64,000 bases of DNA from an uncultured Methanosarcinales archaeon (GTDB lineage Archaea > Nanobdellota > Nanobdellia > Woesearchaeales > ARS49). Shown here one piece after another: positions 2,887 through 61,800 of the stretch (the first letter of the stretch is position 1; the number at the start of each line of letters is the position of its first letter). The position numbers and the translations under genes were made by a program. The stretch lies in the NCBI GenBank assembly GCA_964445485.1, contig CAYUPS010000001.1, forward strand, positions 76,941 through 140,940. Reading direction: 5' to 3'. The notes under the pieces are model-generated. The model saw nothing but the letters and a program-made list of their open reading frames with translations, was not told where the DNA came from and made no database searches.

Positions 2887-2932
2887 GCAGCCCGCACAAC
2901 CTTTAGAAATGGGCCGCAGCTCTGGCGGCATA

Positions 2933-4258
2933 ATGGCTCCTCGGAAGAAAAAGACAGACACAGACGGCTCTGCGGCACCTGCCGCCGAGAAGAAGCCCGC
3001 CGCGGAGAAAAAAGCAGCCGCTGTCGACACGCACGGCCAGCCGACAGTCAACATCGGCATGATCGGCCATGTCGACCACGGCAAGACCACGCTCGTGCGC
3101 GCGCTCTCCGGCAAGTGGGCTGACACGCATTCTGAGGAGATCAAGCGCGGCATCACCATCAGGCTCGGCTATGCCGACGTCACCATCTACAAGTATCCCG
3201 GCGCAGAGGGGCCCGACTCGCTGGGCCTCACACAGAAGAACAAGGACGGTGTCGAAGGCGTCCCCATGCGCCGCATCTCCCTTGTCGACGCGCCCGGCCA
3301 CGAATCGCTCATGGCGACGATGCTCTGCGGCGCATCCATCATGGACGGCGCGCTGCTCCTCATCGCCGCCAACGAGACATGCCCGCAGCCGCAGACTGTC
3401 GAGCACCTGACTGCGCTCACCATCACCGGCATCGACAAGCTCATCGTGGTCCAGAACAAGGTGGACATCGTGAGCGAAGAGGATGCCAAGAAGAACTACG
3501 GCGAGATCAAGGAGTTCCTCAAGGGGACGAAATACGCCGATGCGCCGATCGTCCCGCTCGCCGCGCTCCACAACGTCAACGTGGACGCGCTCCTCGAGGC
3601 AGTCAACGAATACATCCCCGAGCCGCAGCGCGACCTCGCCAAACCGCCGCGCATGCTCGTCGCGCGCTCCTTTGACATCAACAAGCCAGGAACGCTGCCC
3701 AAGAGCATGGTCGGCGGCGTCATCGGAGGCGCCCTCAAGGAAGGCGAGCTGCGGACGGGCGATGAGATCGAGATCCTGCCCGGCTACGAAGTCGAGGAGC
3801 GCAACGCGAAGGTCTGGAAGCCGCTGCGCACGACCATCAAGAAGATCATGACCGGCGGCACGGACGCAGAGGTCGCGAGACCCGGCGGCACCTTCGCAAT
3901 CCTCACCACGCTCGACCCCAGCGTCGTCAAGTCAGACAAGCTTGTCGGATCGCTCATCGGCCATGTCGGCAAGCTGCCGCCGGTGTGGAACACGCTCACG
4001 CTCGAGGTCACGCTGCTCGACCGCGTCGTCGGCGCCAAGGATCAGCTCGTCGTCTCGCCGGTCAAGCTCGGCGAGATGCTCATGCTGAATGTGAACGCGG
4101 CGGCGACAGTCGGCGTCGTCAAGGACATCAGCAAGGGGCTCGTGAAGGTCGCCCTGCGCCGGCCTGTGTGCGCGGCGATCGGCGCGCACGTGACGCTGGC
4201 GCGCAATGTCGGCCAGCGCTGGCGCCTCATCGGCTATGCCGCGATCAAAGGCGCGTAA
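2933..4258 (+). CDS. eif2g: translation initiation factor aIF2 gamma subunit
   Basis: GTPase G1 motif GHVDHGKTTL, NKVD, zinc knuckle region; N-terminal Lys/Ala/Pro-rich extension (MAPRKKKTDTDGSAAPAAEKKPAAEKK); TTTAGAAA at 2902-2909 ~28 nt upstream of ATG 2933 (alternative in-frame ATG 2909). Confidence 0.92.
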   Translation: MAPRKKKTDTDGSAAPAAEKKPAAEKKAAAVDTHGQPTVNIGMIGHVDHGKTTLVRALSGKWADTHSEEIKRGITIRLGYADVTIYKYPGAEGPDSLGLTQKNKDGVEGVPMRRISLVDAPGHESLMATMLCGASIMDGALLLIAANETCPQPQTVEHLTALTITGIDKLIVVQNKVDIVSEEDAKKNYGEIKEFLKGTKYADAPIVPLAALHNVNVDALLEAVNEYIPEPQRDLAKPPRMLVARSFDINKPGTLPKSMVGGVIGGALKEGELRTGDEIEILPGYEVEERNAKVWKPLRTTIKKIMTGGTDAEVARPGGTFAILTTLDPSVVKSDKLVGSLIGHVGKLPPVWNTLTLEVTLLDRVVGAKDQLVVSPVKLGEMLMLNVNAAATVGVVKDISKGLVKVALRRPVCAAIGAHVTLARNVGQRWRLIGYAAIKGA

Positions 4259-8908: not shown

Positions 8909-9055
8909 ATGAATGACCTCCAACGTTCAACCCGAACGCGACCTGTTGCGTACGCTATCGCAAGGATTATATAAATTTTTCGTTGCCGTGCCCACTGCGG
9001 AGTGGCATATCATCCGGCGAAACATTTAAATGCTCGCAACCCGCGAGAGAAACGC

Positions 9056-9343: not shown

Positions 9344-9389
9344 TTTCTAGGATAGCTTTTTAAATGGTCGCGGACTTCTCCGGACTCCC

Positions 9390-9680
9390 ATGACTGACCG
9401 CATCGGCGGCGAGCGCCGCAAGACCCGCAGGCTCATGCGCAAGCCCATCCGCAAGCGCGGCAAGCTGAGCCTCACCGCGTTCTTCTCGACGTACAAAGTC
9501 GGCGAGAAGGTCGTGCTGTACTGCGAGCCGGCCTACCAGCGGGGCATGTACCACCTGCGTTTCCACGGCCGCATCGCGACCATCGAAGGCAAGCGCGGCT
9601 CGTGCTACCAAATCTCGGTGCGCGACGGCGGCAAGATGAAGACATGCATCGTGCACCCTGTGCACCTCAAGAAGGCCTGA
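9390..9680 (+). CDS. rpl21e: 50S ribosomal protein L21e
   Basis: 96 aa MTDRIGGERRKTRRLMRKPIRKRGKLSLTAFFSTYKVGEKV... matches L21e; TTTTTAAAT at 9357-9365 ~29 nt upstream. Confidence 0.9.
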   Translation: MTDRIGGERRKTRRLMRKPIRKRGKLSLTAFFSTYKVGEKVVLYCEPAYQRGMYHLRFHGRIATIEGKRGSCYQISVRDGGKMKTCIVHPVHLKKA

Positions 9681-9686
9681 TATCCC

Positions 9687-10028
9687 ATGAAACTCAAGAT
9701 CGTCTCCGAAGCGCCCATCGGCCTCGTCGATGTCAAGGACATCCTCGAGAAGGCGAAGGAGCGCGACACCGCGTTGAATTTCCGCGCGCAGAAGACGCTC
9801 GACTATCTCCAGCAGAACGTGACGATGAGCGCCAAGAAGGTCAAGGAGCTCGCGGACGCGATCGCCAAGCTCGAGATTCCGCGCCTCAAGGACCAGCACA
9901 TCATCAAGGTCTGCGACACGCTCCCGGCGACCGCCGAGGACGTGAAGCTCGCGCTGCAGGGCTACAACGTGACTGTCACGAAGGAGAACCTGCAGAAGAT
10001 CGCGGATGCCGTCAAGGGCGCGCTCTGA
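9687..10028 (+). CDS. rpo4: DNA-directed RNA polymerase subunit Rpo4 (RpoF, Rpb4 homolog)
   Basis: 113 aa helical protein immediately after L21e; conserved archaeal L21e-RpoF-DUF655 gene order. Confidence 0.8.
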   Translation: MKLKIVSEAPIGLVDVKDILEKAKERDTALNFRAQKTLDYLQQNVTMSAKKVKELADAIAKLEIPRLKDQHIIKVCDTLPATAEDVKLALQGYNVTVTKENLQKIADAVKGAL

Positions 10029-10110
10029 TTCTCCGCTGACTTGATTCGCGCATAATTTTATATACTTCCCGCCTCTTGGGAATGACAGAATATGGGAGCC
10101 ATTAGCGGCC

Positions 10111-10698
10111 ATGCAACAGAACGGACCATTGGACCCTCACCCCAAGCTGGTGCGGGAAGAGCACGCGATTGTCCTGGACTTCTTGCCGCACGGCTATCCG
10201 TTTGATCCGACACCGAGCCATCGGAAGAATCCCATCATCCAGGCGATAGGCCGCGACCGCTTCGTGCTGCTTGAGCTCGTCGCCAAGAAGGAGGCGTTCG
10301 TGCAGCCCCTGCAGGAAGTGTATATCGGTGAGGGCAAGCGCGACCAGGTCAATCACGTGGCGGGCAGGATCGCTCTCGAGAAGCTCACGAGCACGGCCAA
10401 GACCGAGCTCGAGTTCGTGATCAAGGATATCATCAAGAAGCGAGAGGCGGATTTCGTGCAGTTCTTCAATACGGCGCACCCGCTGTCGTTGCGCGTGCAC
10501 CAGCTCGAGATGCTGCCGGGCCTCGGCAAGAAGCATCTGTGGGAGATTCTCGATGCGCGGCAGGACAGGCCGTTCGTGAGCTTCGCGGATCTGCGTGAGC
10601 GCGTGAAGCTCATGCCTGATCCTGAGAAGATGCTGCTGCGCCGCATCCTGAATGAGATCGCGGGAAAGGAGAAGCACCCGCTCTTCACGGACGTGTGA
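10111..10698 (+). CDS. DUF655 family RNA-binding protein (OB fold + helix-hairpin-helix)
   Basis: 195 aa; conserved third gene of the L21e-RpoF operon; followed by T-rich stretch 10721-10736. Confidence 0.8.
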   Translation: MQQNGPLDPHPKLVREEHAIVLDFLPHGYPFDPTPSHRKNPIIQAIGRDRFVLLELVAKKEAFVQPLQEVYIGEGKRDQVNHVAGRIALEKLTSTAKTELEFVIKDIIKKREADFVQFFNTAHPLSLRVHQLEMLPGLGKKHLWEILDARQDRPFVSFADLRERVKLMPDPEKMLLRRILNEIAGKEKHPLFTDV

Positions 10699-38808: not shown

Positions 38809-40116
38809 ATGAGAGTCATCGCGGATCTGCAGATCCACAGCAGGCACAGCAGGGCGACGTCCAAGGACCTCACCGTGCCGAATCTGGAGAAGTACGCGCG
38901 GATCAAAGGGGTATCCTTGCTCGGCACAGGCGACTTCCAGCACCCCAAATGGTGGCAGGAACTGTGGGCTGCGCTCGAGGACCGCGACGGCAGCGGCATC
39001 TACTACACCAAGACGGGCTACCCGTTCCTCCTGCAGACGGAAGTATCGCTCATCTACCGCGCGGGCGGCAAGGGCCGACGCGTGCACCATCTCATCTTCG
39101 CGCCGGACAAAGGGGCGGCGGCGCAGGTGCAGGAATGGCTCGGCACGAAAGGGAGATTGGATTATGACGGCCGACCGATCTTCGGCATGAGCTCTCCCGA
39201 GCTGGTCGAAGGCCTGCGGACCATATCCCGAGACATCGAGGTCATCCCCGCCCATGCGTGGACGCCGTGGTTCGGCATCTTCGGCAGCATGTCTGGCTTC
39301 GACTCCCTCAAGCAATGCTTCGAAGACCAGACCAAGCACATCCACGCCATCGAGACAGGCATCTCCTCCGATCCCGCCATGAACTGGCGCCTGAGCCAGC
39401 TCAAGGACATCAGCATCGTATCCTTCTCCGACGCGCACTCATACTGGCCGTGGCGCCTGGGCCGGGAGGCGACCGTCTTCGACCTCAAGGCTCTTTCATA
39501 CAAAGGAATCATCGACGCGATCCGAACCCGCGACGGCCTCTCAGAGACCATCGAGTTCTATCCTGAAGAGGGCAAGTACCACTTCGACGGGCACCGCGCC
39601 TGCGGCATCGTGCAGTCGCCCGCGCAGACGAGCAAGTCGGGAACAGCGTGCCCGAAATGCAGGCAGCCATTGACCATCGGTGTCGCGGCGCGCATCGACC
39701 AGCTCGCAGACCTGCCCGAAGGGCACAAACACGCGAGCAGCAGGCCCTTCCGCTCCCTGATGCCGCTGCATGAGCTGATCGCCATGGCCGTCGGCAAAGC
39801 AGTCAACACGCAAGCGGTCTGGGGCGTCTACAACTCCATCATCAAGCAGTACGGCAGCGAGTTCAACTTCATGCTCGACGCCACGGACGCGCAGATCGCC
39901 GCTCTCGAGACGCCGAAACTCGGCGACTTCATCCTCGCCATGAAACGCGGCGAGGTCCAGTGGAAGCCGGGTTTCGACGGCGTGTACGGCAGGCCGATCA
40001 TCAACGGCGCGGAGCTGAGCGTGCCGGGCAACAAGGATGACGCCCCGAAAGCGGAGAAGAAACCGCGAGGCCGGCCCAAGAGATCGACAGGACAGAAAGG
40101 GCTTGGCGAATTCTGA
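38809..40116 (+). CDS. endoQ: endonuclease Q (EndoQ; PHP-domain nuclease with zinc finger)
   Basis: 435 aa; N-term ADLQIHS, GTGD, RVHHLI, PAHAWTPW, SDAHS PHP metal ligands; CPKC zinc finger; Lys/Arg-rich tail. Confidence 0.75.
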   Translation: MRVIADLQIHSRHSRATSKDLTVPNLEKYARIKGVSLLGTGDFQHPKWWQELWAALEDRDGSGIYYTKTGYPFLLQTEVSLIYRAGGKGRRVHHLIFAPDKGAAAQVQEWLGTKGRLDYDGRPIFGMSSPELVEGLRTISRDIEVIPAHAWTPWFGIFGSMSGFDSLKQCFEDQTKHIHAIETGISSDPAMNWRLSQLKDISIVSFSDAHSYWPWRLGREATVFDLKALSYKGIIDAIRTRDGLSETIEFYPEEGKYHFDGHRACGIVQSPAQTSKSGTACPKCRQPLTIGVAARIDQLADLPEGHKHASSRPFRSLMPLHELIAMAVGKAVNTQAVWGVYNSIIKQYGSEFNFMLDATDAQIAALETPKLGDFILAMKRGEVQWKPGFDGVYGRPIINGAELSVPGNKDDAPKAEKKPRGRPKRSTGQKGLGEF

Positions 40117-40117
40117 A

Positions 40118-41101
40118 TCACATGCCCACTGCCGCCTTGAGTGTCTCGATCGTGCACAGGTTCTTCGCGAACAAAGCGACGTTCTGCGGGCGCTCCGCAA
40201 GCCGCCGCATGAAGTACGGCCACCAGTTGGCGCCATAGGGAACGTAGACGCGGACCGCGTACCCTTCATCGACGAGCCGTCTCTGGACCGACGGGGAGAA
40301 GCCATAGAGCATCTGGAACTCGAAGCGGTGCCGCGGCACGCCTTCCGCCGCAGCCGCGTGCTTGACGAAATCGATGAGGGTCCTGTCATGCGTGGCGAAG
40401 GCAGGACGCAACGCGTTGCATGGATGGATGGCGCTGAGCAGGACGCGAGAGAGCTCCTTGTACGACTCGCGGATCTCAGGCATCGTCTGGTACGCGATGT
40501 CGGCGGGTTCTTTGTAGGCGCCTTTGACGAGCCGTACGCTCGGCAGGTACGGGAGCACAGTATCGAGGTCTGCGCGGGTGCGCCTGAGCATGCTCTGGAG
40601 CACGATGCCGACGTTGGTGCGGCCGTTCTCGCGCACGCGGCGGTAGATGCCGAGCGTGCGGTCGGTGTGCGCGCTCGACTCCATGTCGATGCGGACGAAA
40701 TTGGGGGCGACGACGCTCGCGTGCAGGAGGATGTTCTCCAAGTGGGTGCGGGCCAGACTCTCGTCGATGTCGAGGCCGAGCGCGGTGAGCTTGAGAGAGA
40801 TGTTGCTGTCGGCCTTCTCGCGCATGATGCGGTTGAGCGCCGCGCAGCATCCGTCGTATGCATGCAGCGTCTGGTCTCCAGCCGTGACGCTCTCACCCAG
40901 CAGATCGACCGTCGCTGACCGGCCGGACGCATTGAGCGACTTCACGGCGGCGATGGCGTCATCGAGAGTCTCGCCGGCGACGAATTGGCGCGAGGTCTTG
41001 GAGAAGATGGCGCGCGTGAGCCTGTTGCGCTCGAGAGACTCCTTGTACTCAGGATGGCGGGAGAGGTGGAGGAAGAGATCACGCAGGAGTGCGGTGAGCA
41101 T
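40118..41101 (-). CDS. proline dehydrogenase family protein
   Basis: 327 aa; C-terminal YVPYGANWWPYFMRRLAERPQN signature of PutA-type proline dehydrogenase domain. Confidence 0.85.
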   Translation of the reverse strand: MLTALLRDLFLHLSRHPEYKESLERNRLTRAIFSKTSRQFVAGETLDDAIAAVKSLNASGRSATVDLLGESVTAGDQTLHAYDGCCAALNRIMREKADSNISLKLTALGLDIDESLARTHLENILLHASVVAPNFVRIDMESSAHTDRTLGIYRRVRENGRTNVGIVLQSMLRRTRADLDTVLPYLPSVRLVKGAYKEPADIAYQTMPEIRESYKELSRVLLSAIHPCNALRPAFATHDRTLIDFVKHAAAAEGVPRHRFEFQMLYGFSPSVQRRLVDEGYAVRVYVPYGANWWPYFMRRLAERPQNVALFAKNLCTIETLKAAVGM

Positions 41102-41142: not shown

Positions 41143-41580
41143 TCACGCCTTCTTGGCTGCAGGCTTAGCTTCTGCCTTTTTCGCAGTCGCAGGCTTCTTC
41201 TCGTCGGCCTTCGGCTCGGCAGGCTTCTTCTCCTCTGCCGCCTTCTTCTCGCCGAGCGCCTTCTTGACCTTCTCGGCCACGCCTTCGGGCTTCTTCTCGT
41301 CGGCCTTCTTGGGCTCCTCGATCTGCTTACCGAAGAGTTCCGCGCGCACGACGCCGTCATCGAACTTCTTGACGACTACCTTGACGCGCGACGGCGGGTT
41401 CTGCATGCCGTGCTTCCACAGCTCGAGATTGAGGAATTTGCCCAGGCGCACATCGTCGCTCTTCATGTGACGCACGAGGAACTTGCGCAGGCCGGCGACC
41501 GCTTTCTTGGCGCGCTTGTAGCGCGAGACCTTGCTCCACTCGCTGCGGAGCGGGACCGTGTACGTTCGTTCGAGTGCCAT
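41143..41580 (-). CDS. rpl31e: 50S ribosomal protein L31e with long Lys/Ala/Glu/Pro-rich C-terminal tail
   Basis: N-term MALERTYTVPLRSEWSKVSRYKRAKKAVAGLRKFLVRHMK matches L31e; C-terminal ~65 aa low-complexity KKAAEEKKPAEPKADEKKPATAKKAEAKPAAKKA. Confidence 0.88.
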   Translation of the reverse strand: MALERTYTVPLRSEWSKVSRYKRAKKAVAGLRKFLVRHMKSDDVRLGKFLNLELWKHGMQNPPSRVKVVVKKFDDGVVRAELFGKQIEEPKKADEKKPEGVAEKVKKALGEKKAAEEKKPAEPKADEKKPATAKKAEAKPAAKKA

Positions 41581-41590
41581 TGTCAGGTAC

Positions 41591-41764
41591 CTATGCCTTG
41601 ATCTTGGTGCGGCGCCAGTTGCGCTTCTTGCGAGTCATGCGGGAGGGGTGCAGCACGCGGCCCTTGCCGTACTTCTTGGGGACGAGCCACACAGGGGCCC
41701 ATCTGGTCTGCTTGCCCGCCTTGGCGAGCCGCTTCTTCCTGCTCTTGTGCTTGAACCGTGCCAT
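41591..41764 (-). CDS. rpl39e: 50S ribosomal protein L39e
   Basis: 57-aa translation MARFKHKSRKKRLAKAGKQTRWAPVWLVPKKYGKGRVLHPSRMTRKKRNWRRTKIKA; below track cutoff; 10 nt upstream of L31e. Confidence 0.88.
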   Translation of the reverse strand: MARFKHKSRKKRLAKAGKQTRWAPVWLVPKKYGKGRVLHPSRMTRKKRNWRRTKIKA

Positions 41765-41769
41765 TGTGC

Positions 41770-42087
41770 TTATACCCTTCGTATCTTCGTCTCTCGCTTG
41801 TGCGGCTCCATCATCACCAGGAGCCTCTTGAAATCCTCGTCGCTGATGCCCGACCGGCCCGTCTGGACCAGCTGGACGACCAGCGCGAGCGCCCGTACTG
41901 CCTTTTCCGGGTGCGCGATCTTGATTGTGGTGTACCGTGCGAACGCCTCAGGAGAGAGGTGGGTGCGGCAGAACGCCTCGAGCCTCGCGAGCTCATCGGC
42001 GACATCTGTCGACTCAGTCTCCTGCGCCTTCTGCTGCAGCGCGGCGAGCTTGCGTCGCCGAACCGCGTCGATATCGTCCATGCTCAC
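41770..42087 (-). CDS. PDCD5/TFAR19-like dsDNA-binding protein
   Basis: 105 aa; IRRRKLAALQQK... LSPEAFARYTTIKIAHPEKA...LVQTGR pattern of archaeal PDCD5-like proteins; ATGA overlap with S19e. Confidence 0.8.
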   Translation of the reverse strand: MSMDDIDAVRRRKLAALQQKAQETESTDVADELARLEAFCRTHLSPEAFARYTTIKIAHPEKAVRALALVVQLVQTGRSGISDEDFKRLLVMMEPHKRETKIRRV

Positions 42088-42812
42088 TGAGCCGCCGGTG
42101 CTTCCGGCGTGTCAGCGGCCGCAGGGGCCGGAGCCTCTGCGCCCTCGGCCTCTTTCTTTTGCGCCGCCTTCTTGCGCGGGGCGCGCGGTTTCTTGGCCTC
42201 GGGAGCGGCACCGTCTGCAGCGGCGGCCTTGGGGGCCGCGGGCTTGCGGGGTGCGCGCGCTTTCTTGGGTTTCTCGACTTCGATGATCTTGAGTTCTGCG
42301 GTGGGGCGGGCGGGGATGGTGACGTTGTGCGTCTTCATCAGTTCGTCCGCCTGCTTGCTCAGGAACGCGACGCCCTTGCCGGTCGCGACGCGGCCCTTGT
42401 TGAGCGCGTTCTTGGACTGCTGGGCGAGGCCTGCCTTCTCGAGCTGCTGGAGGATCTTGCGGAGGATGTTGCCTGAGGACTTGACGAACATGTTGGGCTC
42501 GACGCCGCGGCGCTTCCTGCCGCCGTACTTGTTTCGCAGTTTCGCGACGCCGACGGGGCCGCACTTGGCGAGACGGTAGAGGATGCTCGCGGCGCGCGTG
42601 TACCACCAGTCCGCTTGCGCGGGCGGGCGTTCGCGGCTGATGCCTGTCTTGACGAACGTGGCCCAGGCGGGGGGCTGGATGCTCTTGTCCGCCTTGAGGG
42701 CTTGCGCTGTCTTGTTGATCAGTTCCTGCGGGGGGACGTCGTAGATACCCATTGTGCGTTGTTCCTTCTGTATGCCGCCTTGCGGCGGACGACGGGCGCG
42801 TGCGGCGCCCAT
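42084..42812 (-). CDS. rps19e: 30S ribosomal protein S19e with ~95-aa Lys/Ala/Pro-rich C-terminal extension
   Basis: Core MGIYDVPPQELINKTAQALKADKSIQPPAWATFVKTGISRERPP...WWYTRAASILYRL matches S19e (in-frame alternative ATG at 42752); CTTTTTAAAC TATA (minus orientation ~42840-42850) ~33 nt upstream of 42812. Confidence 0.85.
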   Translation of the reverse strand: MGAARARRPPQGGIQKEQRTMGIYDVPPQELINKTAQALKADKSIQPPAWATFVKTGISRERPPAQADWWYTRAASILYRLAKCGPVGVAKLRNKYGGRKRRGVEPNMFVKSSGNILRKILQQLEKAGLAQQSKNALNKGRVATGKGVAFLSKQADELMKTHNVTIPARPTAELKIIEVEKPKKARAPRKPAAPKAAAADGAAPEAKKPRAPRKKAAQKKEAEGAEAPAPAAADTPEAPAAQ

Positions 42813-52139: not shown

Positions 52140-52814
52140 TCAGCCAAGATCGATCGCGACCCGCGCGACGAGCGGTGGCCAATCATCAGCCGCGGCGTCC
52201 TGGACGGCGATGACAAAGGTTGTCTCGCCATAAGGCATGATGTCGATGTCCGCGTCAGGGCGTGCGATGCTTGAGAAATCAAGCAGGTATGTCGTCGCGA
52301 TGCCTTTGGCGACGCTGTCCGCGATGCCCATGATGCGTCCGAACGGGGCGTTGATCGTGGCTGAGGCGGAGCGCAAGGCCTGCGGCACTGCGCCGCCCGT
52401 GACGCTCGCCGTGATACTCACCGTTTCCGCACCCAGCGAGACTGTCGCTTGGGAGGGGGCATAGGCCAGGTCCATCAGGTCCATGCCTGCGACGCTGTCG
52501 ATGCAGGTCTTGAGCGCGGCGCCCGCATACCGTCTCAGTTCCGACTCCATGAACTGCTGCGAGGGCGCGACGCGGGCGCGGTTGCGGTAGTGGAACGCCA
52601 CCGTCGCACGCTCAGCGTAGAGCGCGTCACCGTGGCCGTAGATGAAGCCGCCGTTGCGCGCGAGCGTGTGCACGCCGGCTCGCATGGCATGCGCAAAACA
52701 TGAGGACACTTGATTGGTCGCGCTCGCCTGCGCGATCGCAATCCATGCGACGCTCGCGACAACCGCCGCAACTATTATGATGAGCATGATGAGCTTCATG
52801 GCGGGGGTTTTCAT
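52140..52814 (-). CDS. signal-peptide hypothetical protein translationally coupled to the giant protein
   Basis: ATG 52814 (M19 of track ORF) overlaps giant-gene stop (ATGA); N-term MKTPAMKLIMLIIIVAAVVASVAWIAIAQASA; no domain recognised. Confidence 0.6.
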   Translation of the reverse strand: MKTPAMKLIMLIIIVAAVVASVAWIAIAQASATNQVSSCFAHAMRAGVHTLARNGGFIYGHGDALYAERATVAFHYRNRARVAPSQQFMESELRRYAGAALKTCIDSVAGMDLMDLAYAPSQATVSLGAETVSITASVTGGAVPQALRSASATINAPFGRIMGIADSVAKGIATTYLLDFSSIARPDADIDIMPYGETTFVIAVQDAAADDWPPLVARVAIDLG

Positions 52815-55800
52815 GGTGCGCCTCCGACGGGAACGGGCGGTGCTGCGACGGGCTGTGCCCAGCGCCACGTGACCTCGTAATCATCCCGATACTTCCAGGG
52901 GTTGGCGATGTTGCGCTGGAAGAAACCCTTTCCGTTGGCGCTCTCTCCCGAGAAGTAATCCTTGCCTGCCTTCTCGAGCTCATCGAGGTAGCCGGCGCTG
53001 CCTTGGGCGGCATCCAAGATGTACCTGCGGCCGTTGCGGATGTATTCGGCCCATTGATGGCCTGCCGCATCGACGATCGTGGAGAGGCCCTTGCGCAAGT
53101 AGCCGCGGTTGATCGCTTCCGAAATGATGTGCGCGATAATCGGGGCTTGGTGCCTGCAGACGCCTCCGACGCCGATGCAGGAAGAGCCGATATCGATGAA
53201 TTCTGTCGAAGCCTCGCCGAGATACTTGCCCAGCCCTGAGCTGTACGGAACCCTGCGGGTGACGAGAGCGTTGACACCGCTGAGGATCTCCTCCTCGATC
53301 TGCGCCTGTGTCGCGCCGGACGCTTTCATCTCGCTCGTGAGCTTGCCCATGGCCTCCATGACCTCGTCAGTCAGGGGTTTGAGCGATTTCGGATCGATGA
53401 CCTGCAGTTCGGTCGAAGGATTGACGATGACTTGCAAAGCGCCGCCGATGGGCTTTCCCGGTCTCGTGGCTGGCACGTTGCCTTCCAGGAAGGACTCTTG
53501 GATGTCGGGGCGGGTCACCATCTCGGAGCCGAAGTCCTGCTTGGAGATGCGTTTCGCGCGATCGCGCAGACCCCATCCCATCGGCAGTTCTTCGATGAGC
53601 GAATCCACGTTCTCGCCGCGGGATGCCGCCCGCTCGAGATTGGCGAGATTCTGGAGATCTTCAGCATCCACCGAGCCCGCACCGTAATACCTGTTCAGGT
53701 CGTCGGCGTACATGCGCAATTGGGTATACGTACGGGCATCGGAAACATCCGGGAGTTTCGGCAGGATCTCCACCAGGTCCTCTTCGGCTTCGATGACGGC
53801 CGCGCGTTCTGCTTTGGCGAGAGACGCGGCCGCATCGACTTCGCGCAGTGCGTTCTGCACAACGCCCGAGTCAGCGGTGATGCCTCTCGCCCTGAGCGCC
53901 TCTTCGATCGCGCCGGACGTGTGCGTCTTGATGCCCTTGAGCGCTTCGGAGACCTCGTCGACGCTCTTGCCGAGCTTGCTCGCCAGGTTCTTCGCATACG
54001 CCTCGGCAATGGATGATTTGGTGAACGTGCGCATGGCGCCGGGCAAGCCAGCGCCGGCGAGGATGCCCGTAGCCATAGTGACTGTCGGGTTGTCCGTGCC
54101 GATGCCGCTGAAGGTCAGGATGGCGCCGGTCGCGGCATCGATCATGACTGATTCCGCCATGCCCGCGAGCGCGCCGCCAAAGCCCGTCGCGCCGGTGAAG
54201 CTCATGCCCGCGCCGCCGGTGAGGAGCGCGAGGGCGATCGCGCCGGGGCTCGCAGCGTCGTCGACGAAATCGGCGACTTTGGCCAGGTCACTGATGACTG
54301 AATCGGGGAGCGAGCTCATGGCGATGCTGGAGATCATGTTGCTCGGGAGGAAGGGTGACGGACCGCTCATGCCTGCAAGGTAGCCGAGGAATTTGCGGTC
54401 GCGCTCGGTGCGCAGCGCGTTGACGCTGTCCTCATCAAGCATCTCCTGCATGCCGATGTCGACTTCCCAGAGGACGTCGTTCGACTTGAACTCGCCCGGG
54501 GAGGAGCTGACCGCTTCCTTGCCGATGAGTTTGCGGATGTCTCCGCTGTAGGGACTGTCATAATACGTCTTGCGGGCGTCCTCGCGCGCTTCGGCGAGGA
54601 ACTCCTTGAGCGGGTAGAGCTGTCCGGGATCGAGCTTGTACTGGCCGTCCGTGATCGGGGCCATGTCGCCGATGGGCTTGCTGCCGTCGTTGCCGTGGCC
54701 TGATCTGATGAGCATGTCGCGCGCCATGCGGTCGTCATCCTTGCTGTTGAGCCAGCGCTCTATCTGCTCCGCAGACATGCCCGTCTGCTTGAGGGCCTGG
54801 AGCGCGTACATGCCTCGCGAGTATGCCTTGCCTTCGGCGCTGAGCGTCTCGGCCGCCTTCTTGACCTCCTCGAAACCGCCGGCGACATTGACGGCATCCT
54901 TGAGGAAGCCGCCGTTGAAGAGGCCGTTGAAGATGACCGCGCCGGCTTTCGCGACGCCTGCGGGGATGGTGAGACTCCCGCTGCGGCCTTGGAATGTCAT
55001 GCGGATGTCCTGGTAGTCATCGCCGACCGCTTCGCTCATTCGGTCGGAATAGCCTTCTGTGCTGTCACGCAGCGCATCGAGCCGCTGCTCCTTCGCGTAC
55101 AACTGGCCTTGGAGCTTGCTGAAGCCGCTCGCGCCGATCGCGTCGCGGTCGTTCTTGACCGAGTCTCCTGCCATGCTCAGGAGGCCGAGCTGCTCATCCA
55201 GGGCGTCCGCGCGCTCGAGCAGGCGTTCGCGCTCCTCGATGCTGAGACCGGACGATGCGAGCTGCCTGTCGATATCAGCAAGTTGGCGTTGCAGGGCGTC
55301 GCCCGCCGCCTTGATCTCGCCGATCAGGTTGTCCGTGACCGCGAGAGCATCGCCGACCTTGCCGTGCGAGGCGTACCAGCTCGCGAGCTCGCGTGAGAGC
55401 GTGATCTTCTTGGATGAGATGCCGTTCGCGCTCGCGCCGCCAGTGTACTCGCGCTTGACGGCGACGCCCTCGCCCGTGCGCTCGAGGGTCGTCTCGGCGA
55501 GACGCAGGCGGGCGCGCAGGGAATTCTCGACGATGCTGCGATCAGGCGCGACTTCGCCGGGCGTGTCCGCGTACCTCTGTTTCGCGTTCTCATAATGGAT
55601 GCGGTTGGCGAGCTGGGCGTCGAGCAATGCGGCGGTCCCTGCCGCAGTATTGCCTTGCGCGCCGCCGATCATGCTGGAGAGGCTCTTCTCGAGGCTGTCG
55701 ATGTTGCCTGACTGCCAGAAGCTGCTGAGCAGGGGGTCGTTGTCCATGCGCCGTTTGCTCTCGTCGAATTTCTGCTGGATGAACTTGCGGCGCTCTTCGC

Positions 55801-58800
55801 GCTGGGCCGCGGGCACGCCTTGGCTGCCGTCGGCGGAGACTTCCCAGTCGAGCGGCAGGTTCTCGGCGTTGCGCTGCACGAACGAGTTGCGCAGCGCGTT
55901 GGCCCAGACCCTGTCGATGGAGCCTGCGCCGAATGCGCCGTCGATGAACGCCTCGACCTCAGTCATCGCCTGGATGTGCGCTTCGTAACGCTTGATCGAT
56001 CCGTCGGCGGAGGTGATTGTGTTCTTCTTGGCGATGAGTTCGTAGAGCTTCTGGAGCGCGGCGGCGATGAGTTCGGGGCGATCGTGGTTGCGGATCATCT
56101 GGCGGATCGCTTCCTTGAGCGATTCGATGTCATTGCCGACAAGGGCCTTGGCGTCCGCGGGCGAGGCGACATGGACATCCTTGTTGCCTTCGGCCGGCGA
56201 TGAGTAGGTCTGCGAGAGATCGCTCGCGATTGTCAGCGTCGGGCCTCCTGTGCCGTCCTTGATAGCCTGCGGCTTGTTCTCGACGCGGTCGCTGCCGGTC
56301 TCGCCGGCGATCGCCGCGAGCGAGGTGGCATCCTCCTTGATGCGCTGGCCCGTCGGCGAATTCGTGACGGAGACGGCGAGCTGCGTGCCAACCTGCTTGT
56401 GGGCGAAATTGTCGCTGTCCGAGCGGGCGTCGACACCGATGCTGAACTGCGCAGTGGTGATCTCCGAGGCCGGATTGCCGATGGAGAACACCTCATTGGT
56501 GTCGCCGTCGGGCGATGACGTGCGGTGGAGGAGGGCACCATTGTTGGCGGTGTAGGCGATTGTGTTGGTGACAAGCGATGCAGTCATCGCGTAGAGCACA
56601 AGGTCGTGCGTGATCTTGTCGCCGACCATCTTGATGAATCCTGCGTTCGGCGAGCCGAGCGCGGACACGGACATGCCGAGCGCGCCACCGCCGATGTTCA
56701 GGCTCGTCGTGCCGCTCTCGACCTTCGCGTAGAGGGCGTCATCGGAATAGCCGACAGTGTTGCCGCTCGTTTCGAGGGCGGAGGAGACCGCTTGGCCTTC
56801 CGGGACGAACTTGACAGGCGCGGTAGACGTGAGCTCCAGCTGGTTCTTCTCATCGGTGTAGGCGGCGGCTTGGCCGGGAGCGGGCGTCTTTGGCGCGGGA
56901 GCGGAGCTCTGGGAGTCATCGCTGGAGGCTTTGGGCGGGGAGAGCGTCTTGCCGGCGTCTTCAAAGGATTGCGGCACGTGGCCGCCGCGGCTGCCTGTCA
57001 GTCCTTCGAAGAGTCCGAGGATTCCGTGGAGCATGCGTGTCGGGCTGTTGAGGTTCTCGAGTTCCAACAGGAAGCCTTTCTCGAACCATCCGCGGTTCTT
57101 GTCGTACGTGCTCTTGGCAGGGTTTTCCTTGTTGTTCCACCAGTCGCCCAGCGCGCCCCAACCCGCATCCCACGTGCTCGTTTTGGGCCAGGGGTTCTTG
57201 TCCTGCGCTTCGTATCCCGAGACGCCGACGCTGCCTTTGTCCGTCGTTGCGTCTACCCGTGTTTTCACTCCCTTGGTGCCGTCTTGCGTGAGGGTGAGTG
57301 TCAGGTCCTTGATGCTGTCGGCACTCTTGAATGCAGGGTCGTTGCGCAGGGCTTCCAATGCGTTGCGCAGCACGGTCTTGAGCCATTGCGCTTGTTCAGG
57401 GCTGAGCCCCTTGATGGGGCAGCCCAGCAGCTTGTCGAGCAGGCTCATGTCCAGGGTGTCGATCGCGTGTTTGAGGAGGCGCCTGATCGCATCGCCGCCT
57501 TTCGCATCAGGCGGTATGCCGATGCTGATCTTTGTCTCGCCTTCGCTGCCGTCGATGCGCAACTTGAACGGTTCCTTGAGGATGCTCTTGCCGTCCTTGC
57601 CCTTGAGGCCGATGGACGCTTCAAGCGCATAGGACGGGCCGCTCACGCGGTTCTCGCCCCAGACCGCACCCGGTTCAAAGACGGACGGCTTGGTGAGCGA
57701 CACCTTCAGGTCCTTGACATCAATAGAGATACCGGCGCCCGAAGTAGATTCGCAGGGGTCTTTGGGCTTCGCAGGAGCCTCTGGCGGCGTGGACGGAACG
57801 ATCTTGTCGAGCGCGTCACCTGCGCTCATGCCGCCGTTGTAGACCATGCCGTAGGAGAGTCCGAGGAGGTTGAAGACGTTGCGGACGATGGTGCCCGTGG
57901 TGGGTTTTTGGGACTGCTCTTCGAGCCAGCCGTTCGCGACGCTCTCTATATAGGATTCGGCGGCGCTGCTCGGGTCGCCGTCTGTCTTGATGTCCGCGCC
58001 GGCCGTTCCTTTGCCGGTGAAGGATGCAGGCAAGCCTTTGGGCGTGCGGCCGTTGACGGTGACTGTCACGTCCATCGAGCCGGGCGGCGTGCCGGGCTTG
58101 GGTTCGGGCTGGTCCTTGAGCTCGAGGTGGATGCTGTCGAGCGATTCGAGGCGTTTGAGGTCTGAGCCGAGGAGGGCGCGCAGGGGCTCGGAGAATATCT
58201 CCTTGAGCTTGTCCCGCATCTCGGGCTTCATGCCGGGGATGTCGTTGAGCGCGTCGAGGACGGAGTCGATGTGCGTGCGCAGGCCGTCCATGAGCGCCCG
58301 CTTGAATCCTTCGCTGACGAGGTCGGCGAAACCGGTCTTGTCGAAGTTGGGGAACTTGATGTCGATGGTGAGGACGCCCTTGCAGGACTTGAGCACGATC
58401 TCGATCGGGTGCTTCTCGATCTGCTCGCGGATGGTCTGCTTGCTCAGGAACTTGGCGAGCGGGTGCTCGTAGGGGAGGCGGCGCAGGAGCTCGTGCAGGT
58501 GCACGTTCGCGCGCAGGTTGTAGCAGTCGTCAGGTGTGCTCTCCATCTTCCATTGTATCTTGCGGTCGAATTCGCCCTCGTACTGGTAGTCTTCCTTGCC
58601 GTCGTAGGGTTTCTTGTCGACCTGGAGGTTGCTGCCGATGCGGTAGTCGCGGTGGTTCTCTGTCGGTCCTGCGCGGATGTGCACATCGAAGGGCTCTTCG
58701 CTGGGCGTCGAGCCGTCGCGGGGGATCATCTGCACGACGGTGCCGCCGGCATCGGTGGGGTTGCCGCGGGGGTTGTCCTCATCGGTGATGGTGGGAACGT

Positions 58801-61800
58801 GCCTGAGCTCGATGTCGCGGCCGCCTTTGCTGATCGAGCCCTTGACAAGGCCTCCTTGGCGTCCGATGTAGTTGTCGACGCCGTCTGCGTACACGGTGCG
58901 GTCGCCGCCGGGGCCGTAGTGCGTGCGGATGTATTCTGCGATTGCGGCTTCGAGCTTCTCGAAACGCTCATGCTCTTCGGACGAGGTGCCTTTGCCGGCT
59001 TTCTTGCCGTACTGCTTGGCCATGGTCTCGAGGCCTGCGAGCTGGTATTGCAGGCGGCCTTCGCGCGATTCCGCCTCATTTGACGGCTGCGATGAGGGCC
59101 AGGGGAATCCTTCGGGCGGCAGTGCCTTATTGAAGAGCGGCGTGGTGCTGCCGCCGTCGAAGCCGGGGGTGTAATGCCTGAGGAGGTCCTTCTTGAGATC
59201 CTTGGCGATCTTCTCGAAATCGTCTGAGCGGCTCTGGACGAGTCCCTTGTTGGTCTGCAGTCCCTTGAGCTCTTCCTGGAGCCTCTCGCGCTCGGCGCCC
59301 TGCGCGGTGCGCAACTGATCCTTGATCTTCGCGATGCGCTCGTCGTATTCCTTGACGATCTTGTCGCGCTCGGCCTTCCTCGCGGGGTCGTTCTCCTGCT
59401 CGGCGATGCGTGCGGCATCGGCGACGGCGCGCATCCACACCTGCATGTCGCGGGCGAAGTCCTTCTTGTACGCGCTGAGCGCTTTGTCCCAGCGGCGCTG
59501 TGCCTCATCGTTCGCGACCGACGTCACGGTGTAGTCGGAGTCGCCGTTGATGATGATGGTGGTTCCCGGCATGGCCTTGATCGTGACGTCTTCGCCGTCC
59601 GAGCCCTTGATCGTGACCGATGACGAGCCGTCCGATTCCGTGGTGGTTTTCACGATTTCGGGGTTGTACCCGTCGGCGAGCTTGATGTTCTGGGGCAGGT
59701 CGATGCATTTGCCGTCCTTGCACGCGTCCTTGCACGCAGTCTTCTTGGTCTGCCCGCACCAGAGCGGAGTGATGAGGTTGCGCGTCCCCTTCTCGCAGGA
59801 TGGCGCGGCAGGCTTCTCGCAGCATCTGGCTTCGGTGCTCGTGACCTGCTGGCATCCCCAGGGGCAGGTCTCTTTATAGTAGGTCTCGGGATCGACTGTC
59901 GGTGCTTGCGGCGGCGGGCAACCCGCGTAGAGCCGCTTCTGCCAGATCTCAGGCTCATCTCCGAGGCCGTGGATCTGGCCCGGGCCGTACTTGGTCGGCA
60001 CGAAGAGGTTCTTGCCCGCGTACGGCTCAGTGCCGGTCGGGGTCTTGAGGTCCTGTGTCGGCCTCCAGTTGGATTGCGTGCCCCTTGTTTGCAGCGTGGG
60101 CTGCGTGCAGTACGTGGTGTACTTCTTGCAGTCATCCTGCGAGAGCCTGCACTCGTCGAATGTCATCTTGCAGTCGGAGCCGCAGCCGAGCGGTCCGATG
60201 CTGCCTTTGGTGTTCGGCGGGTTGGGCACGTCCTTGCAGCGCAGGGTCGGGGGGCGGAAGACGGGTTTGCCGTCCTTGGTGTCGCACTCCTCCGTCTCTT
60301 TGTCGTCATTGGGCGCCTGCACGATGCCGTCGCCGCAGTATTCCTTGGGGACGCACTTGTTGGATTGGCATTTCTTGGCAGAATCCGAGCAGTCGGAATC
60401 CTTGACGCACTCGAAGCAGCCGCTCGTGTCGATCGTGCACTGGCCCGCAGCGCCCGCAGGCCTGCAGGTGAGCTCGCCGGCGCCGCGTATCGGTTTTTCC
60501 CCGAACGTCCTGCCGAAGCATGTCTCGCTGCCGAAGTCCTTGCCGTCGCATTCTTCGCCGGACTGTTTCTTGCCGTCGCCGCACACGGATTTCTCTGACG
60601 TGCAGCCGCGCTTGTCGAAGAGGCAGGTGAAGCTGTCGCAGCCGAGCTGGCCTCCCTTGAAGACGGGATCGACGGACGCGCAGTCGTAGCCGTCGAGCAT
60701 CGGCTTGCCGTCCCTGCCGATTTCGCACTCTTCCGTCTTGCCCTGGTCATTGGGTTTCTGTATCACGTAATCGCCGCACTTGGTCTTGGGCACGCACTTC
60801 TCATTGACGCATTTCTCTTCGGCCGAGCAGTCTTCTTCATGGCCGTCGCGGCATTCCTTGCATCCGCTCACATCGAACTGGCACTCCTTCGCGTCACCCT
60901 TGGGGAAGCAGCCGAGGTCTCCGTGGGGTTTGCCGGCAGCGGTGGAGCAAGTCTGACCGCCCAGGTCATTGCCGTCGCAGCTCTCGGGCCGCTCGCGGAC
61001 GCCGTTGCCGCACGTGTGCGTCTCAGACGCAGCCATTTCGCAGTTGATCGTGCTGTAGACGCAGTCAGGACCTATCTTCTTGCACAGGAGCGTTCCCCCC
61101 ACATACAGGGGGTTGACGTCCTTGCATGTCTTGCTGCCGACATTGCTTGGCAGTTCGCATTCCTCCTTGCCGCCATCGTCATTCTTCGCTTGTATGTTCC
61201 CGTCGCCGCAGTAGGTCTTCTTCTTGCACGCGCCGCCGTCGCATTTGCACGTGCCGTCTTCGCAGCCCTCGGAGTAATAGCAGTCTTCCGCGATCTGGCA
61301 CTGGGAGCATCCGGCATCGTCGATGCGGCACTGTGACGCCGAGCCTTTCGGATGGCACTTGAGCGTGCCGAAGGGGCGCAGTTTGCCCGTCTTCTCCGTA
61401 ACAGTCCTGCAGTTCGCGCCGTTGAAGTCCTGGCCGTCGCAGTGCTCTCCGGCGTCGACCTTGAAGTTGCCGCACGCCGCAGGATCCGCGGGGGGCAGCG
61501 TGCAGGCGCTCGTGTCGTAGACGCAGCTCACGCCGACCTTCTTGCACTTGAGCGTGCCGCCGGTGAAGACTGAATCGACTTGGGAGCAGGTCTTGCTGCC
61601 GATCTTGTCCGGCAATTCGCACACTTCTGTCCCTCCTTCGGTGTTCTTCGGCTGGATCTCACCGTCGCCGCAGGAGGTCTTCTTCTCGCACTTGCCATAT
61701 GCCCTGTCGCAGAAGTGCCCGCTGTCGCAGTCTGCGTCAGAATCGCACTCATAGCAGGGGTTGGTGTTGTACTGGCAGGGCGTCGCAGCGGTCTTGTCGT

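What the first reader, a model, noticed from the sequence alone, without database searches (positions are those of the whole stretch)
41143..42812. Ribosomal proteins S19e and L31e carry long Lys/Ala/Pro/Glu-rich low-complexity C-terminal tails
S19e has a normal core followed by ~95 extra residues (KPKKARAPRKPAAPKAAAADGAAPEAKKPRAPRKKAAQKKEAEGAEAPAPAAADTPEAPAAQ). L31e ends with ~65 residues of KKAAEEKKPAEPKADEKKPATAKKAEAKPAAKKA. aIF2-gamma (2933-3040) has an N-terminal KKK/AEKK extension, and AglB has a K/E/A/P-rich N-terminal ~115 aa. Lys codons are AT-rich, so in this GC-rich genome these tails are unlikely to be compositional drift. They resemble histone-H1/HU-like nucleic-acid-binding tails known mainly from high-GC bacteria. 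This is unusual for archaeal r-proteins and possibly lineage-defining.
Basis: seen in the sequence. Interest (0 to 1): 0.55.

Follow-up and report, generated by a model that had tools for sequence, protein, structure and literature searches.

The report
Lysine-rich disordered tails on Woesearchaeota ribosomal proteins
Two ribosomal proteins of this GC-rich Woesearchaeota-type archaeon really do carry 60-75-residue lysine/alanine/proline/glutamate-rich disordered tails; these are inherited across the lineage and contain short conserved motifs, and they are a new example of a known phenomenon, not a new kind of system.

Summary
S19e (42084-42752, minus strand, 222 aa) has a normal 147-aa core plus a 75-aa tail. 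L31e (41143-41580, 145 aa) has an 84-aa core plus a 61-aa tail. All solved archaeal homologues end where these cores end.

The tails are not artefacts. Of the 120 closest database relatives, 105 S19e and 117 L31e proteins have tails of at least 40 aa. So do 137 of 147 more distant L31e cluster representatives. Among species-representative genomes, 61 of 62 Woesearchaeota-type L31e genes have tails and six Archaeoglobi have none. S19e tails are patchy: 50 present, 19 absent.

Tail composition follows genomic GC, so the histone-H1-like Ala/Pro look here is the high-GC version of a Lys/Glu-rich tail. Net positive charge and length do not follow GC.

The tails hold conserved motifs. S19e carries KK-x-RAPRKKK, twice here through a 72-nt internal duplication. 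L31e carries a short predicted helix, GVAEKVKKALG. The APRKKK word also opens a conserved N-terminal extension of aIF2-gamma.

AlphaFold predicts both tails to be disordered, and neither matches any Pfam family or solved chain.

Most likely they are ribosome-retained, electrostatic rRNA-binding tethers. That function is inferred, not shown. Verdict: new member of a known kind, moderate interest.

The parts
42084..42752 (-). S19e (eS19) coding sequence, 222 aa plus stop; start at ATG 42752
   Evidence: Pfam PF01090, E=8.4e-47. It is 100% identical to public protein P0001 of 222 aa. Relatives all begin MGIYD/MGIHD.
42312..42752 (-). S19e globular core, residues 1-147
   Evidence: Aligns with residues 4-145 of the 150-aa Pyrococcus S19e. 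AlphaFold pLDDT is mostly above 90.
42087..42311 (-). S19e C-terminal tail, residues 148-222 (75 aa): K/A/P/E-rich, net charge +7, predicted disordered
   Evidence: pLDDT 57-69 with no secondary structure. No Pfam or PDB match. Tails of at least 40 aa occur in 105 of 120 relatives.
42243..42272 (-). S19e tail basic motif, copy 1 (KPKKARAPRK, residues 161-170)
   Evidence: APRKK occurs in 51 of 115 relatives' tails against a shuffle mean of 0.4. This copy lies in one arm of a 41-nt direct repeat (D4).
42168..42194 (-). S19e tail basic motif, copy 2 (KKPRAPRKK, residues 187-195)
   Evidence: Fits the family consensus P-K-K-[KP]-R-A-P-R-K-K-K. It is the second arm of repeat D4, 72 nt (24 codons) from copy 1 and 78% identical.
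41770..42087 (-). PDCD5-like dsDNA_bind protein gene (context). Its start overlaps or abuts the S19e stop codon.
   Evidence: Pfam PF01984; sequence read.
41591..41764 (-). L39e gene, 57 aa, no tail (context)
   Evidence: Pfam PF00832.
41143..41580 (-). L31e (eL31) coding sequence, 145 aa plus stop
   Evidence: Pfam PF01198, E=3.1e-14. It is 100% identical to public protein P0121.
41329..41580 (-). L31e globular core, residues 1-84
   Evidence: Aligns with residues 6-87 of an 89-aa solved eL31. pLDDT 84-97.
41146..41328 (-). L31e C-terminal tail, residues 85-145 (61 aa): 33% Lys, net charge +7, predicted disordered, with a degenerate 15-nt (5-codon) periodicity
   Evidence: Tails of at least 40 aa occur in 117 of 120 relatives and in 137 of 147 cluster representatives.
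41251..41283 (-). Conserved helix-forming element in the L31e tail (GVAEKVKKALG, residues 100-110)
   Evidence: AlphaFold predicts a helix at 101-111. The aligned element G-[IV]-x-x-K-[IV]-x-E-K-V-x-G is visible in alignment A2. The pattern occurs in 28 of 120 relatives' tails and in 0 of 120 S19e tails.
2933..3037 (+). N-terminal extension of aIF2-gamma, beginning MAPRKKK (related feature; shares the APRKKK word with the S19e tail)
   Evidence: 91 of 118 relatives begin M-x(0-3)-[RK]KK against a shuffle mean of 5.7.

Best explanation
The tails are genuine, translated, intrinsically disordered C-terminal extensions of ribosomal proteins eS19 and eL31. They are inherited within the Woesearchaeota (GTDB Nanoarchaeota) lineage to which this unusually GC-rich genome belongs.

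They lengthen and shorten by in-frame tandem duplication. Their bulk composition drifts with genomic GC. Selection keeps three things: a high lysine content, a modest net positive charge, and short embedded motifs. The motifs are KK-x-RAPRKKK in eS19 and a short amphipathic helix in eL31.

The most likely mechanism is inferred, not shown. The tails stay on the mature ribosome as flexible electrostatic tethers. The basic motifs dock on the rRNA backbone or another nearby polyanion at the small-subunit head (eS19) and near the exit-tunnel side of the large subunit (eL31). The Ala/Pro/Glu-rich stretches act as spacers. This would stabilise or help assemble the ribosome of these small-genome archaea.
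For: Shown here:
- The cores are standard and the tails lie beyond the ends of all solved homologues.
- Tails recur in 105 of 120 S19e relatives and 117 of 120 L31e relatives, in 137 of 147 L31e representatives at 50% clustering, and in 61 of 62 L31e and 50 of 73 S19e ingroup loci from species-representative genomes. None occurs in six Archaeoglobi loci.
- Tails stay open for 60-110 codons in relatives of 27-35% GC. By my own arithmetic a stop-free run of 80 codons has a chance of about 0.001 there, so the frame is maintained.
- Composition tracks GC, but net charge per residue and length do not (rho 0.06-0.19). 88% of representative L31e tails are net positive.
- APRKK is found in 51 of 115 S19e tails (shuffle mean 0.4, maximum 5), in 0 of 120 L31e tails, and 0 times in 145,149 residues of neighbouring ORFs.
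- The motif window is 75-79% identical between relatives, against 30-35% for the rest of the tail.
- Only 2 other ORFs in the 80 related loci carry comparable segments, so this is not a proteome-wide habit.
- AlphaFold: confident cores; tails have low confidence and no structure except the conserved L31e helix.
- Internal DNA repeats show growth by duplication.

From the literature:
- Lys-rich low-complexity regions of prokaryotic ribosomal proteins are read as nucleic-acid-binding (PMC6821194).
- The mosquito RPS6 H1-like tail is retained on ribosomal subunits (PMC548281).
Against: - No experiment or structure shows that the tails are retained, or what they touch.
- S19e tails have been lost or never gained in 19 of 73 ingroup species, and lengths range from 0 to about 158 aa. 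The tails are therefore dispensable in some relatives.
- The APRKK motif is confined to a subclade: 9 of 73 species-representative loci, against about half of the closest 120 proteins.
- The motif counts are not corrected for shared ancestry.
- The identity figure for the motif window is inflated, because four of its ten positions were fixed by the selection pattern.
- The positions of eS19 and eL31 on the ribosome are taken from general knowledge, not tested here.
Confidence: 0.55

Rival explanations
1. Neutral baggage. The tails are functionless low-complexity expansions produced by replication slippage at solvent-exposed C-termini. They are tolerated because they do no harm, and they drift with genome composition.
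For: - Length is very variable (0-158 aa) and S19e tails are repeatedly absent.
- Composition follows GC closely.
- Both tails contain DNA-level repeats.
- Outside the motifs, tails are only 30-35% identical between relatives.
Against: - L31e tails persist in 61 of 62 ingroup species and 137 of 147 cluster representatives, across 27-62% GC.
- Frames stay open in AT-rich genomes, where stop codons arise easily.
- Net positive charge is held while composition shifts.
- Motifs are far more frequent than in shuffled tails.
- Neighbouring genes do not accumulate such tails.
Confidence: 0.25
2. Extraribosomal role. The tails give eS19 and eL31 a second job as histone-H1-like DNA or polyanion binders, for example in chromatin compaction or condensate formation, away from the ribosome.
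For: - In this genome the composition resembles H1, AlgP and HU-type Lys/Ala/Pro tails.
- Lys-rich low-complexity regions bind DNA non-specifically in many systems (PMC6821194).
- S19e sits next to a PDCD5-like dsDNA-binding gene, but that gene order is a conserved archaeal arrangement.
Against: - No homology to H1 or HU.
- The H1-like composition is specific to high-GC members.
- The same APRKKK word is on aIF2-gamma, a small-subunit-bound factor, which points to the translation machinery.
- Ribosomal proteins are mostly sequestered in ribosomes.
Confidence: 0.1
3. Removable extension. The tails are translated but cleaved off before or during ribosome assembly, like the ubiquitin moiety of eukaryotic S27a fusions. 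They would act only as assembly chaperones or solubility tags.
For: There is no direct evidence. The tails are disordered and therefore accessible to proteases, and a built-in chaperone role is conceivable.
Against: - No conserved cleavage-site-like junction is seen between core and tail (alignment A2; tail lists).
- The closest documented analogue, the mosquito RPS6 tail, is retained on ribosomes (PMC548281).
Confidence: 0.07
4. Artefact. A frameshift, a missing stop codon or a mis-assembly created the tails in this contig.
For: At 62% GC, a stop-free run of 61-75 codons arises by chance in roughly 11-17% of cases (own arithmetic). The +1 frame of both tails also lacks stops.
Against: - Independent assemblies from many samples carry homologous tails with the same motifs in the same frame.
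- Codon-position GC in the tails fits coding sequence.
- The S19e stop codon abuts the next gene's start, as expected in an intact operon.
Confidence: 0.01

Closest known systems
Low-complexity regions of prokaryotic ribosomal proteins (Ntountoumi et al. 2019, PMC6821194)
   Same: These are Ala/Glu/Lys-rich low-complexity stretches on ribosomal proteins. They recur across genera and are read as nucleic-acid-binding when Lys-rich. 15% of archaeal ribosomal low-complexity regions have at least 30% Lys.
   Different: That survey lists archaeal S3, S24e, L10 and L12, not S19e or L31e, and it sampled few DPANN genomes. The tails here are longer (61-75 aa against a mean of 36 aa) and contain conserved motifs.
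Alanine/lysine-rich C-terminal region of uS19 in Parcubacteria, candidate phyla radiation bacteria (Tsurumaki et al. 2022, PMC9297842)
   Same: A lineage-specific Ala/Lys-rich C-terminal extension on a small-subunit head protein, in an ultra-small, reduced-genome, uncultured lineage. Its function is also unknown.
   Different: It occurs in bacteria, on a different and unrelated protein (uS19, not eS19), and is about 25 aa long. No embedded motif is reported.
Histone-H1-like C-terminal extensions of mosquito RPS6 and RpL23a (Zhai & Fallon 2005, PMC548281)
   Same: Lys/Ala/Glu-rich tails of 100-170 aa on ribosomal proteins. They diverge fast relative to the core, evolved independently of true H1, and are shown to stay on ribosomal subunits.
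   Different: They are eukaryotic, on different proteins, and have no shared ancestry with the tails here.
Lys/Ala/Pro-rich tails of bacterial nucleoid proteins (mycobacterial HupB, Pseudomonas AlgP; AlgP in PMC9239181; the rest recalled from my own knowledge)
   Same: Similar composition in this high-GC genome; disordered and polycationic.
   Different: These tails are attached to DNA-binding folds, not ribosomal proteins. There is no sequence homology. In low-GC relatives of this archaeon the tails are K/E-rich and do not look like them at all.
NLS-type basic motifs of archaeal ribosomal proteins (Melnikov et al., bioRxiv 10.1101/671966), plus SPKK and AT-hook minor-groove motifs (recalled)
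   Same: KKPRAPRKKK is a short basic patch with a Pro-centred turn, like monopartite nuclear localisation signals (NLS), SPKK/SPRK units and AT-hooks. The published NLS-type motifs bind rRNA.
   Different: The published motifs are in uL3, uL15, uL18 and uS12 and lie within conserved, structured extensions. eS19 and eL31 are not among them. The motif here has Ala where SPKK has Ser/Thr, and RAPR where an AT-hook has RGRP.

Membership tests
Ribosomal protein S19e / eS19 (PF01090) | Full-length match to the S19e domain | tested here: met
   Residues 23-160 of the 242-aa ORF match profile positions 2-136 of 137, E=8.4e-47. Aligns with residues 4-145 of Pyrococcus S19e, E=5.6e-40.
Ribosomal protein S19e / eS19 (PF01090) | Conserved archaeal gene neighbourhood (S19e, PDCD5-like, L39e, L31e) | tested here: met
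   All four genes lie in a row on the minus strand. L31e was found within 4 kb of S19e in 62 of 74 related ingroup loci.
Ribosomal protein L31e / eL31 (PF01198) | Match to the L31e domain | tested here: met
   Residues 5-71 match the profile, E=3.1e-14. Aligns with solved eL31 chains of 89-95 aa.
Ribosomal protein L31e / eL31 (PF01198) | Single domain without extensions, as described for characterised ribosomes (PMC9932298) | tested here: not met
   There is a 61-aa tail beyond the domain. The protein is still an eL31. This feature describes known members and does not define the family.
Linker histone H1/H5 or HU-type nucleoid proteins | Globular winged-helix (H1) or HU fold | tested here: not met
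   The only domains found are S19e and L31e. The tails alone give no Pfam hit even at E up to 10 and no meaningful PDB hit.
Linker histone H1/H5 or HU-type nucleoid proteins | Lys/Ala/Pro-rich disordered tail | tested here: met
   The match is compositional only: the S19e tail is K 16%, A 35%, P 16%. The likeness fades in low-GC relatives.
AT-hook | R-G-R-P core flanked by basic residues | tested here: not met
   The S19e motif is R-A-P-R-K. No RGRP occurs in either tail. A true RGRP core is present at the C-terminus of the neighbouring ORF 38809-40116.
SPKK-type minor-groove motif | Ser/Thr-Pro-[KR]-[KR] unit | tested here: not met
   The position before Pro is Ala in 88 of 91 motif instances. 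The definition of the SPKK unit is recalled from my own knowledge.
Low-complexity-region-bearing prokaryotic ribosomal proteins (PMC6821194) | Ala/Glu/Lys-dominated low-complexity region on a ribosomal protein, recurring in orthologues of many taxa | tested here: met
   K+A+P+E make up 77% and 84% of the tails. Tails recur in relatives.
Ribosome-retained r-protein extension that binds rRNA | Tail present on the mature ribosome and contacting rRNA | not testable with these tools
   This needs proteomics or a structure of a Woesearchaeota ribosome. No such structure appears among the PDB matches.

The most novel reading that the evidence does not exclude
The APRKKK word may be a shared short linear docking motif. 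It is embedded in the eS19 tail (twice here) and sits at the very N-terminus of aIF2-gamma in the same lineage. If so, the head protein's tail and the initiation factor would recognise or compete for the same site on the small subunit, either an rRNA helix or a protein. That would give these reduced archaea a lineage-specific way to recruit or gate the initiator-tRNA ternary complex. It might also fill space left by r-proteins such as eS25 and eS30, which are listed as absent from Nanoarchaeota (PMC9932298).
Probability: 0.08. Interest if true: 0.7.

Novelty: new member of a known kind. Interest (0 to 1): 0.35.

Why it matters
- **Annotation.** Tail-bearing S19e and L31e from Woesearchaeota genomes should not be treated as gene-calling errors or trimmed. 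The L31e tail could serve as a simple lineage marker.
- **Composition versus function.** This is a clean natural example of a disordered tail whose amino-acid make-up is rewritten by genomic GC, from K/E-rich to A/P-rich, while charge and short motifs are kept. That separates what selection sees from what mutation bias does.
- **DPANN ribosomes.** No DPANN-type ribosome appeared among the solved S19e and L31e chains matched here. These tails, together with the conserved aIF2-gamma N-terminus, are specific features to look for in density and in metaproteomes.
- **Limits.** This does not reveal a new kind of system. Lys-rich low-complexity extensions on ribosomal proteins are already known in bacteria, archaea and eukaryotes.

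Tried and rejected
1. **Frameshift or assembly artefact.** Rejected. Homologous tails with the same motifs occur in many independent assemblies.
2. **Proteome-wide habit of Lys-rich tails.** Rejected for the sampled neighbourhoods. Only 2 other ORFs in the 80 related loci, and no other segment in the window under the strict filter, show it. L21e and L39e in the window have no tails.
3. **Homology of the tails to H1, HU or any domain.** No Pfam or PDB match even at E up to 10.
4. **Finding the window's own genome or very close relatives for dN/dS.** The best S19e relative is 56% identical. The genome is not among the species representatives scanned. The exact-sequence clusters have one member each. 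No selection test on close pairs was possible.
5. **Checking other ribosomal proteins of the lineage.** The main r-protein operons are not in the window. A 21-kb neighbourhood of aIF2-gamma in an 875-kb relative contig held only L21e. This question stays open.
6. **Literature on these particular tails.** Five full-text searches found none. This covers the held open-access library only and does not prove absence.
7. **AglB as a member of the set.** Set aside. Its N-terminal region is a generic charged cytoplasmic segment.
8. **Rfam and tRNA scans of the window.** They gave only two tRNAs, far from the finding.
Full report
**What is there.** The region 41143-42812 lies in a 62% GC window. Its minus strand carries a compact run of four genes: S19e (PF01090, E=8e-47), a PDCD5-like dsDNA-binding protein (PF01984), L39e (PF00832) and L31e (PF01198, E=3e-14).

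The longest S19e ORF starts at 42812. All relatives begin at the residues encoded from the ATG at 42752 (MGIYDVP...), and the identical public protein is 222 aa. The gene is therefore 42084-42752. Its TGA stop abuts or overlaps the start of the next gene.

**Where core ends and tail begins.** I compared both proteins with every solved structure.
- S19e residues 3-147 align with residues 4-145 of the 150-aa Pyrococcus protein. All solved archaeal S19e chains are 144-158 aa.
- L31e residues 2-82 align with residues 6-87 of an 89-aa chain. Archaeal L31e chains are 82-95 aa.

The extensions are therefore 75 aa for S19e (not about 95) and 61 aa for L31e.

| Tail | K | R | A | P | E | Net charge | Hydrophobic residues |
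|---|---|---|---|---|---|---|---|
| S19e | 16% | 7% | 35% | 16% | 11% | +7 | 5% |
| L31e | 33% | 0% | 23% | 10% | 18% | +7 | 7% |

A six-frame scan of the whole window finds only these two segments under a strict filter. A looser filter adds the aIF2-gamma N-terminus and one 30-aa stretch of AglB.

**Real or artefact.** An open frame is weak evidence at 62% GC. By my arithmetic about one random 75-codon stretch in nine lacks a stop, and the +1 frame of both tails is also open. The decisive evidence is comparative.
- Of the 120 closest S19e proteins in a 5.8-billion-protein collection, 105 have tails of at least 40 aa. Of the 120 closest L31e proteins, 117 do.
- Searching the L31e core alone against 1.84 billion cluster representatives, 137 of the 147 best-matching representatives analysed have tails of at least 40 aa, with a median of 86.
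- Among loci from species-representative genomes, most of them labelled Woesearchaeota or Nanoarchaeia, 61 of 62 L31e genes have tails of 23-158 aa. Six Archaeoglobi loci have none.
- S19e tails of at least 20 aa occur in 50 of 73 ingroup loci and are absent in 19.

These relatives range from 27% to 56% GC. In the AT-rich ones a stop-free run of 80 codons would be very improbable by chance, so the frames are maintained. Frameshift and mis-assembly are excluded for practical purposes.

**Which organism.** Named relatives are Candidatus Woesearchaeota. An 875-kb Woesearchaeota-type contig shares local gene order with the window: phosphomannomutase next to aIF2-gamma, and DUF655, RpoF, L21e, SepF. 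The window is more GC-rich than any of the 80 related loci.

**Composition against constraint.** Across relatives, tail composition follows locus GC.

| Quantity vs locus GC (Spearman rho) | S19e tails | L31e tails |
|---|---|---|
| A+P+G+R | +0.77 | +0.69 |
| K | -0.69 | -0.46 |
| Net charge per residue | 0.06 | 0.19 |
| Length | 0.17 | -0.06 |

Net charge and length do not follow GC, and 88% of representative L31e tails are net positive.

Low-GC relatives have K/E-rich tails. This genome has the A/P-rich version, which is why it looks like histone H1 or mycobacterial HU tails. Lysine is retained against mutation pressure, and 27 of the 32 tail Lys codons are AAG. The rest of the composition is largely mutation bias.

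The tails alone match no Pfam family and no solved chain. The H1/HU likeness is therefore compositional, not homology.

**Motifs inside the tails.** The tails are not featureless.

*S19e.* The tail holds a basic patch with consensus P-K-K-[KP]-R-A-P-R-K-K-K.
- APRKK occurs in 51 of 115 relatives' tails, against a mean of 0.4 and a maximum of 5 in shuffled tails.
- It never occurs in 120 L31e tails, nor in 145,149 residues of neighbouring ORFs.
- Between relatives, the 10-aa motif window is 75-79% identical while the rest of the tail is 30-35% identical. Four of the ten positions were fixed by the selection pattern, so the true contrast is smaller.
- The window has two copies, residues 161-170 and 187-195. 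They lie in a 41-nt direct repeat 72 nt apart and 78% identical, which is an internal 24-codon duplication.
- The motif is a subclade trait. It is seen in only 9 of 73 species-representative loci.

*L31e.* Just after the core there is an element G-[IV]-x-x-K-[IV]-x-E-K-V-x-G, which here reads GVAEKVKKALG. It aligns across many relatives and is the only part of the tail that AlphaFold folds, as a helix at 101-111. Other Woesearchaeota subclades end their L31e tails with different conserved words, HPTAPRSV in 17 of 62 loci and GQIIR in 3. The L31e tail DNA has a degenerate 15-nt period.

**Structure prediction.** Both cores are confident (pLDDT mostly above 90). The S19e tail has pLDDT 57-69 and no secondary structure. 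The L31e tail has pLDDT 42-58 apart from the short helix. Both behave as intrinsically disordered regions.

**Is it a general habit of the proteome?** No, as far as sampled. Among the other ORFs of at least 110 aa in the 80 related loci, only two carry comparable segments. L21e and L39e in the window are of ordinary length. Other ribosomal proteins of the lineage could not be examined, because the main operons are outside the window and outside the fetched loci.

**The aIF2-gamma link.** The protein starts MAPRKKK and has about 35 residues before the GTPase domain. Among 118 relatives, 91 begin M-x(0-3)-[RK]KK (shuffle mean 5.7) and 14 contain APRKK (shuffle mean 0.0). The same word, often followed by Glu, thus marks the eS19 tail and the N-terminus of a factor that binds the small subunit. 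This may be convergence on a generic basic patch. A shared docking site is the most novel reading left open.

**How it probably works.** Shown:
- The tails are coding sequence and are conserved in the lineage.
- They are predicted to be disordered and are net positive.
- They carry motifs and grew by duplication.

Inferred: the tails remain on the ribosome and act as flexible electrostatic tethers. Their basic motifs would dock on rRNA at the small-subunit head (eS19) and on the exit-tunnel side of the large subunit (eL31). Those positions come from general knowledge of archaeal and eukaryotic ribosomes, not from a test here.

Support by analogy:
- Lys-rich low-complexity regions of prokaryotic r-proteins are read as nucleic-acid binding (PMC6821194).
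- The mosquito RPS6 H1-like tail stays on subunits (PMC548281).
- eL31 in characterised ribosomes has no extension and no protein partner (PMC9932298). A tail here would therefore be a new contact-maker.

Rivals are neutral slippage-driven baggage, an extraribosomal H1-like role, a cleaved pro-region, and artefact.

**Comparison with what is known.** The kind is known.
- Low-complexity A/E/K regions are frequent in bacterial and archaeal r-proteins. S3, S24e, L10 and L12 are the listed archaeal cases, not S19e or L31e (PMC6821194).
- Parcubacteria of the candidate phyla radiation carry an Ala/Lys-rich C-terminus of about 25 aa on uS19 (PMC9297842).
- Mosquitoes carry H1-like tails on RPS6 and RpL23a (PMC548281, PMC11764897).
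- NLS-type basic motifs in archaeal r-proteins are described for uL3, uL15, uL18 and uS12 only (bioRxiv 10.1101/671966).

I found no paper on these particular tails in five full-text searches of the held library. That does not prove none exists.

**Verdict.** This is a new member of a known kind: lineage-conserved, motif-bearing, Lys-rich disordered tails on eS19 and eL31 of Woesearchaeota. Interest is moderate to low (0.35). The shared APRKKK word with aIF2-gamma is the one lead worth an experiment.

Noticed in passing
window 2933-3037 (+), start of aIF2-gamma (2933-4258): aIF2-gamma begins MAPRKKK and has an N-terminal extension of about 35 aa. 91 of 118 relatives begin M-x(0-3)-[RK]KK. The APRKKK word is the same as in the S19e tail motif.
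   Followed up: partly
window 38809-40116 (+): A 435-aa ORF with no Pfam match ends in ...KAEKKPRGRPKRSTGQKGLGEF. This is a short basic tail with a true AT-hook-like RGRP core.
   Followed up: no
window 52811-63985 (-): A giant ORF of 3724 aa with coding-like codon-position GC and no Pfam family match.
   Followed up: no
whole window, compared with loci L001-L080: At about 62% GC the window is more GC-rich than all 80 related loci from species-representative genomes (25.5-56.4%). The genome itself is not among those representatives: the best S19e match is 49% identical.
   Followed up: partly
L31e genes in loci such as L013, L019, L025, L030, L038, L041: In another Woesearchaeota subclade the L31e tail ends in a conserved ...HP-x-HAPKMP...HPTAPRSV segment (17 of 62 loci). 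Three loci end in GQIIR. Different subclades seem to carry different terminal motifs.
   Followed up: partly
window 40118-41101 (-): A proline dehydrogenase gene (PF01619) follows L31e directly on the same strand. That is an unusual neighbour at the end of this ribosomal gene run.
   Followed up: no
window 1543-4258 and 8510-10698; locus L081: Local gene order is shared with an 875-kb Woesearchaeota-type contig: phosphomannomutase next to aIF2-gamma, and SepF, L21e, RpoF, DUF655. This supports the lineage assignment.
   Followed up: partly
window 42753-42812 (-): An in-frame ATG 60 nt upstream would add 20 residues (MGAARARRPPQGGIQKEQRT) to S19e. Relatives and the public annotation do not use it.
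   Followed up: yes
window 50615-50688 (-) and 51455-51525 (+): Two tRNA genes, tRNA-Arg(TCG) and tRNA-Pro(TGG). These are the only Rfam matches in the window.
   Followed up: yes
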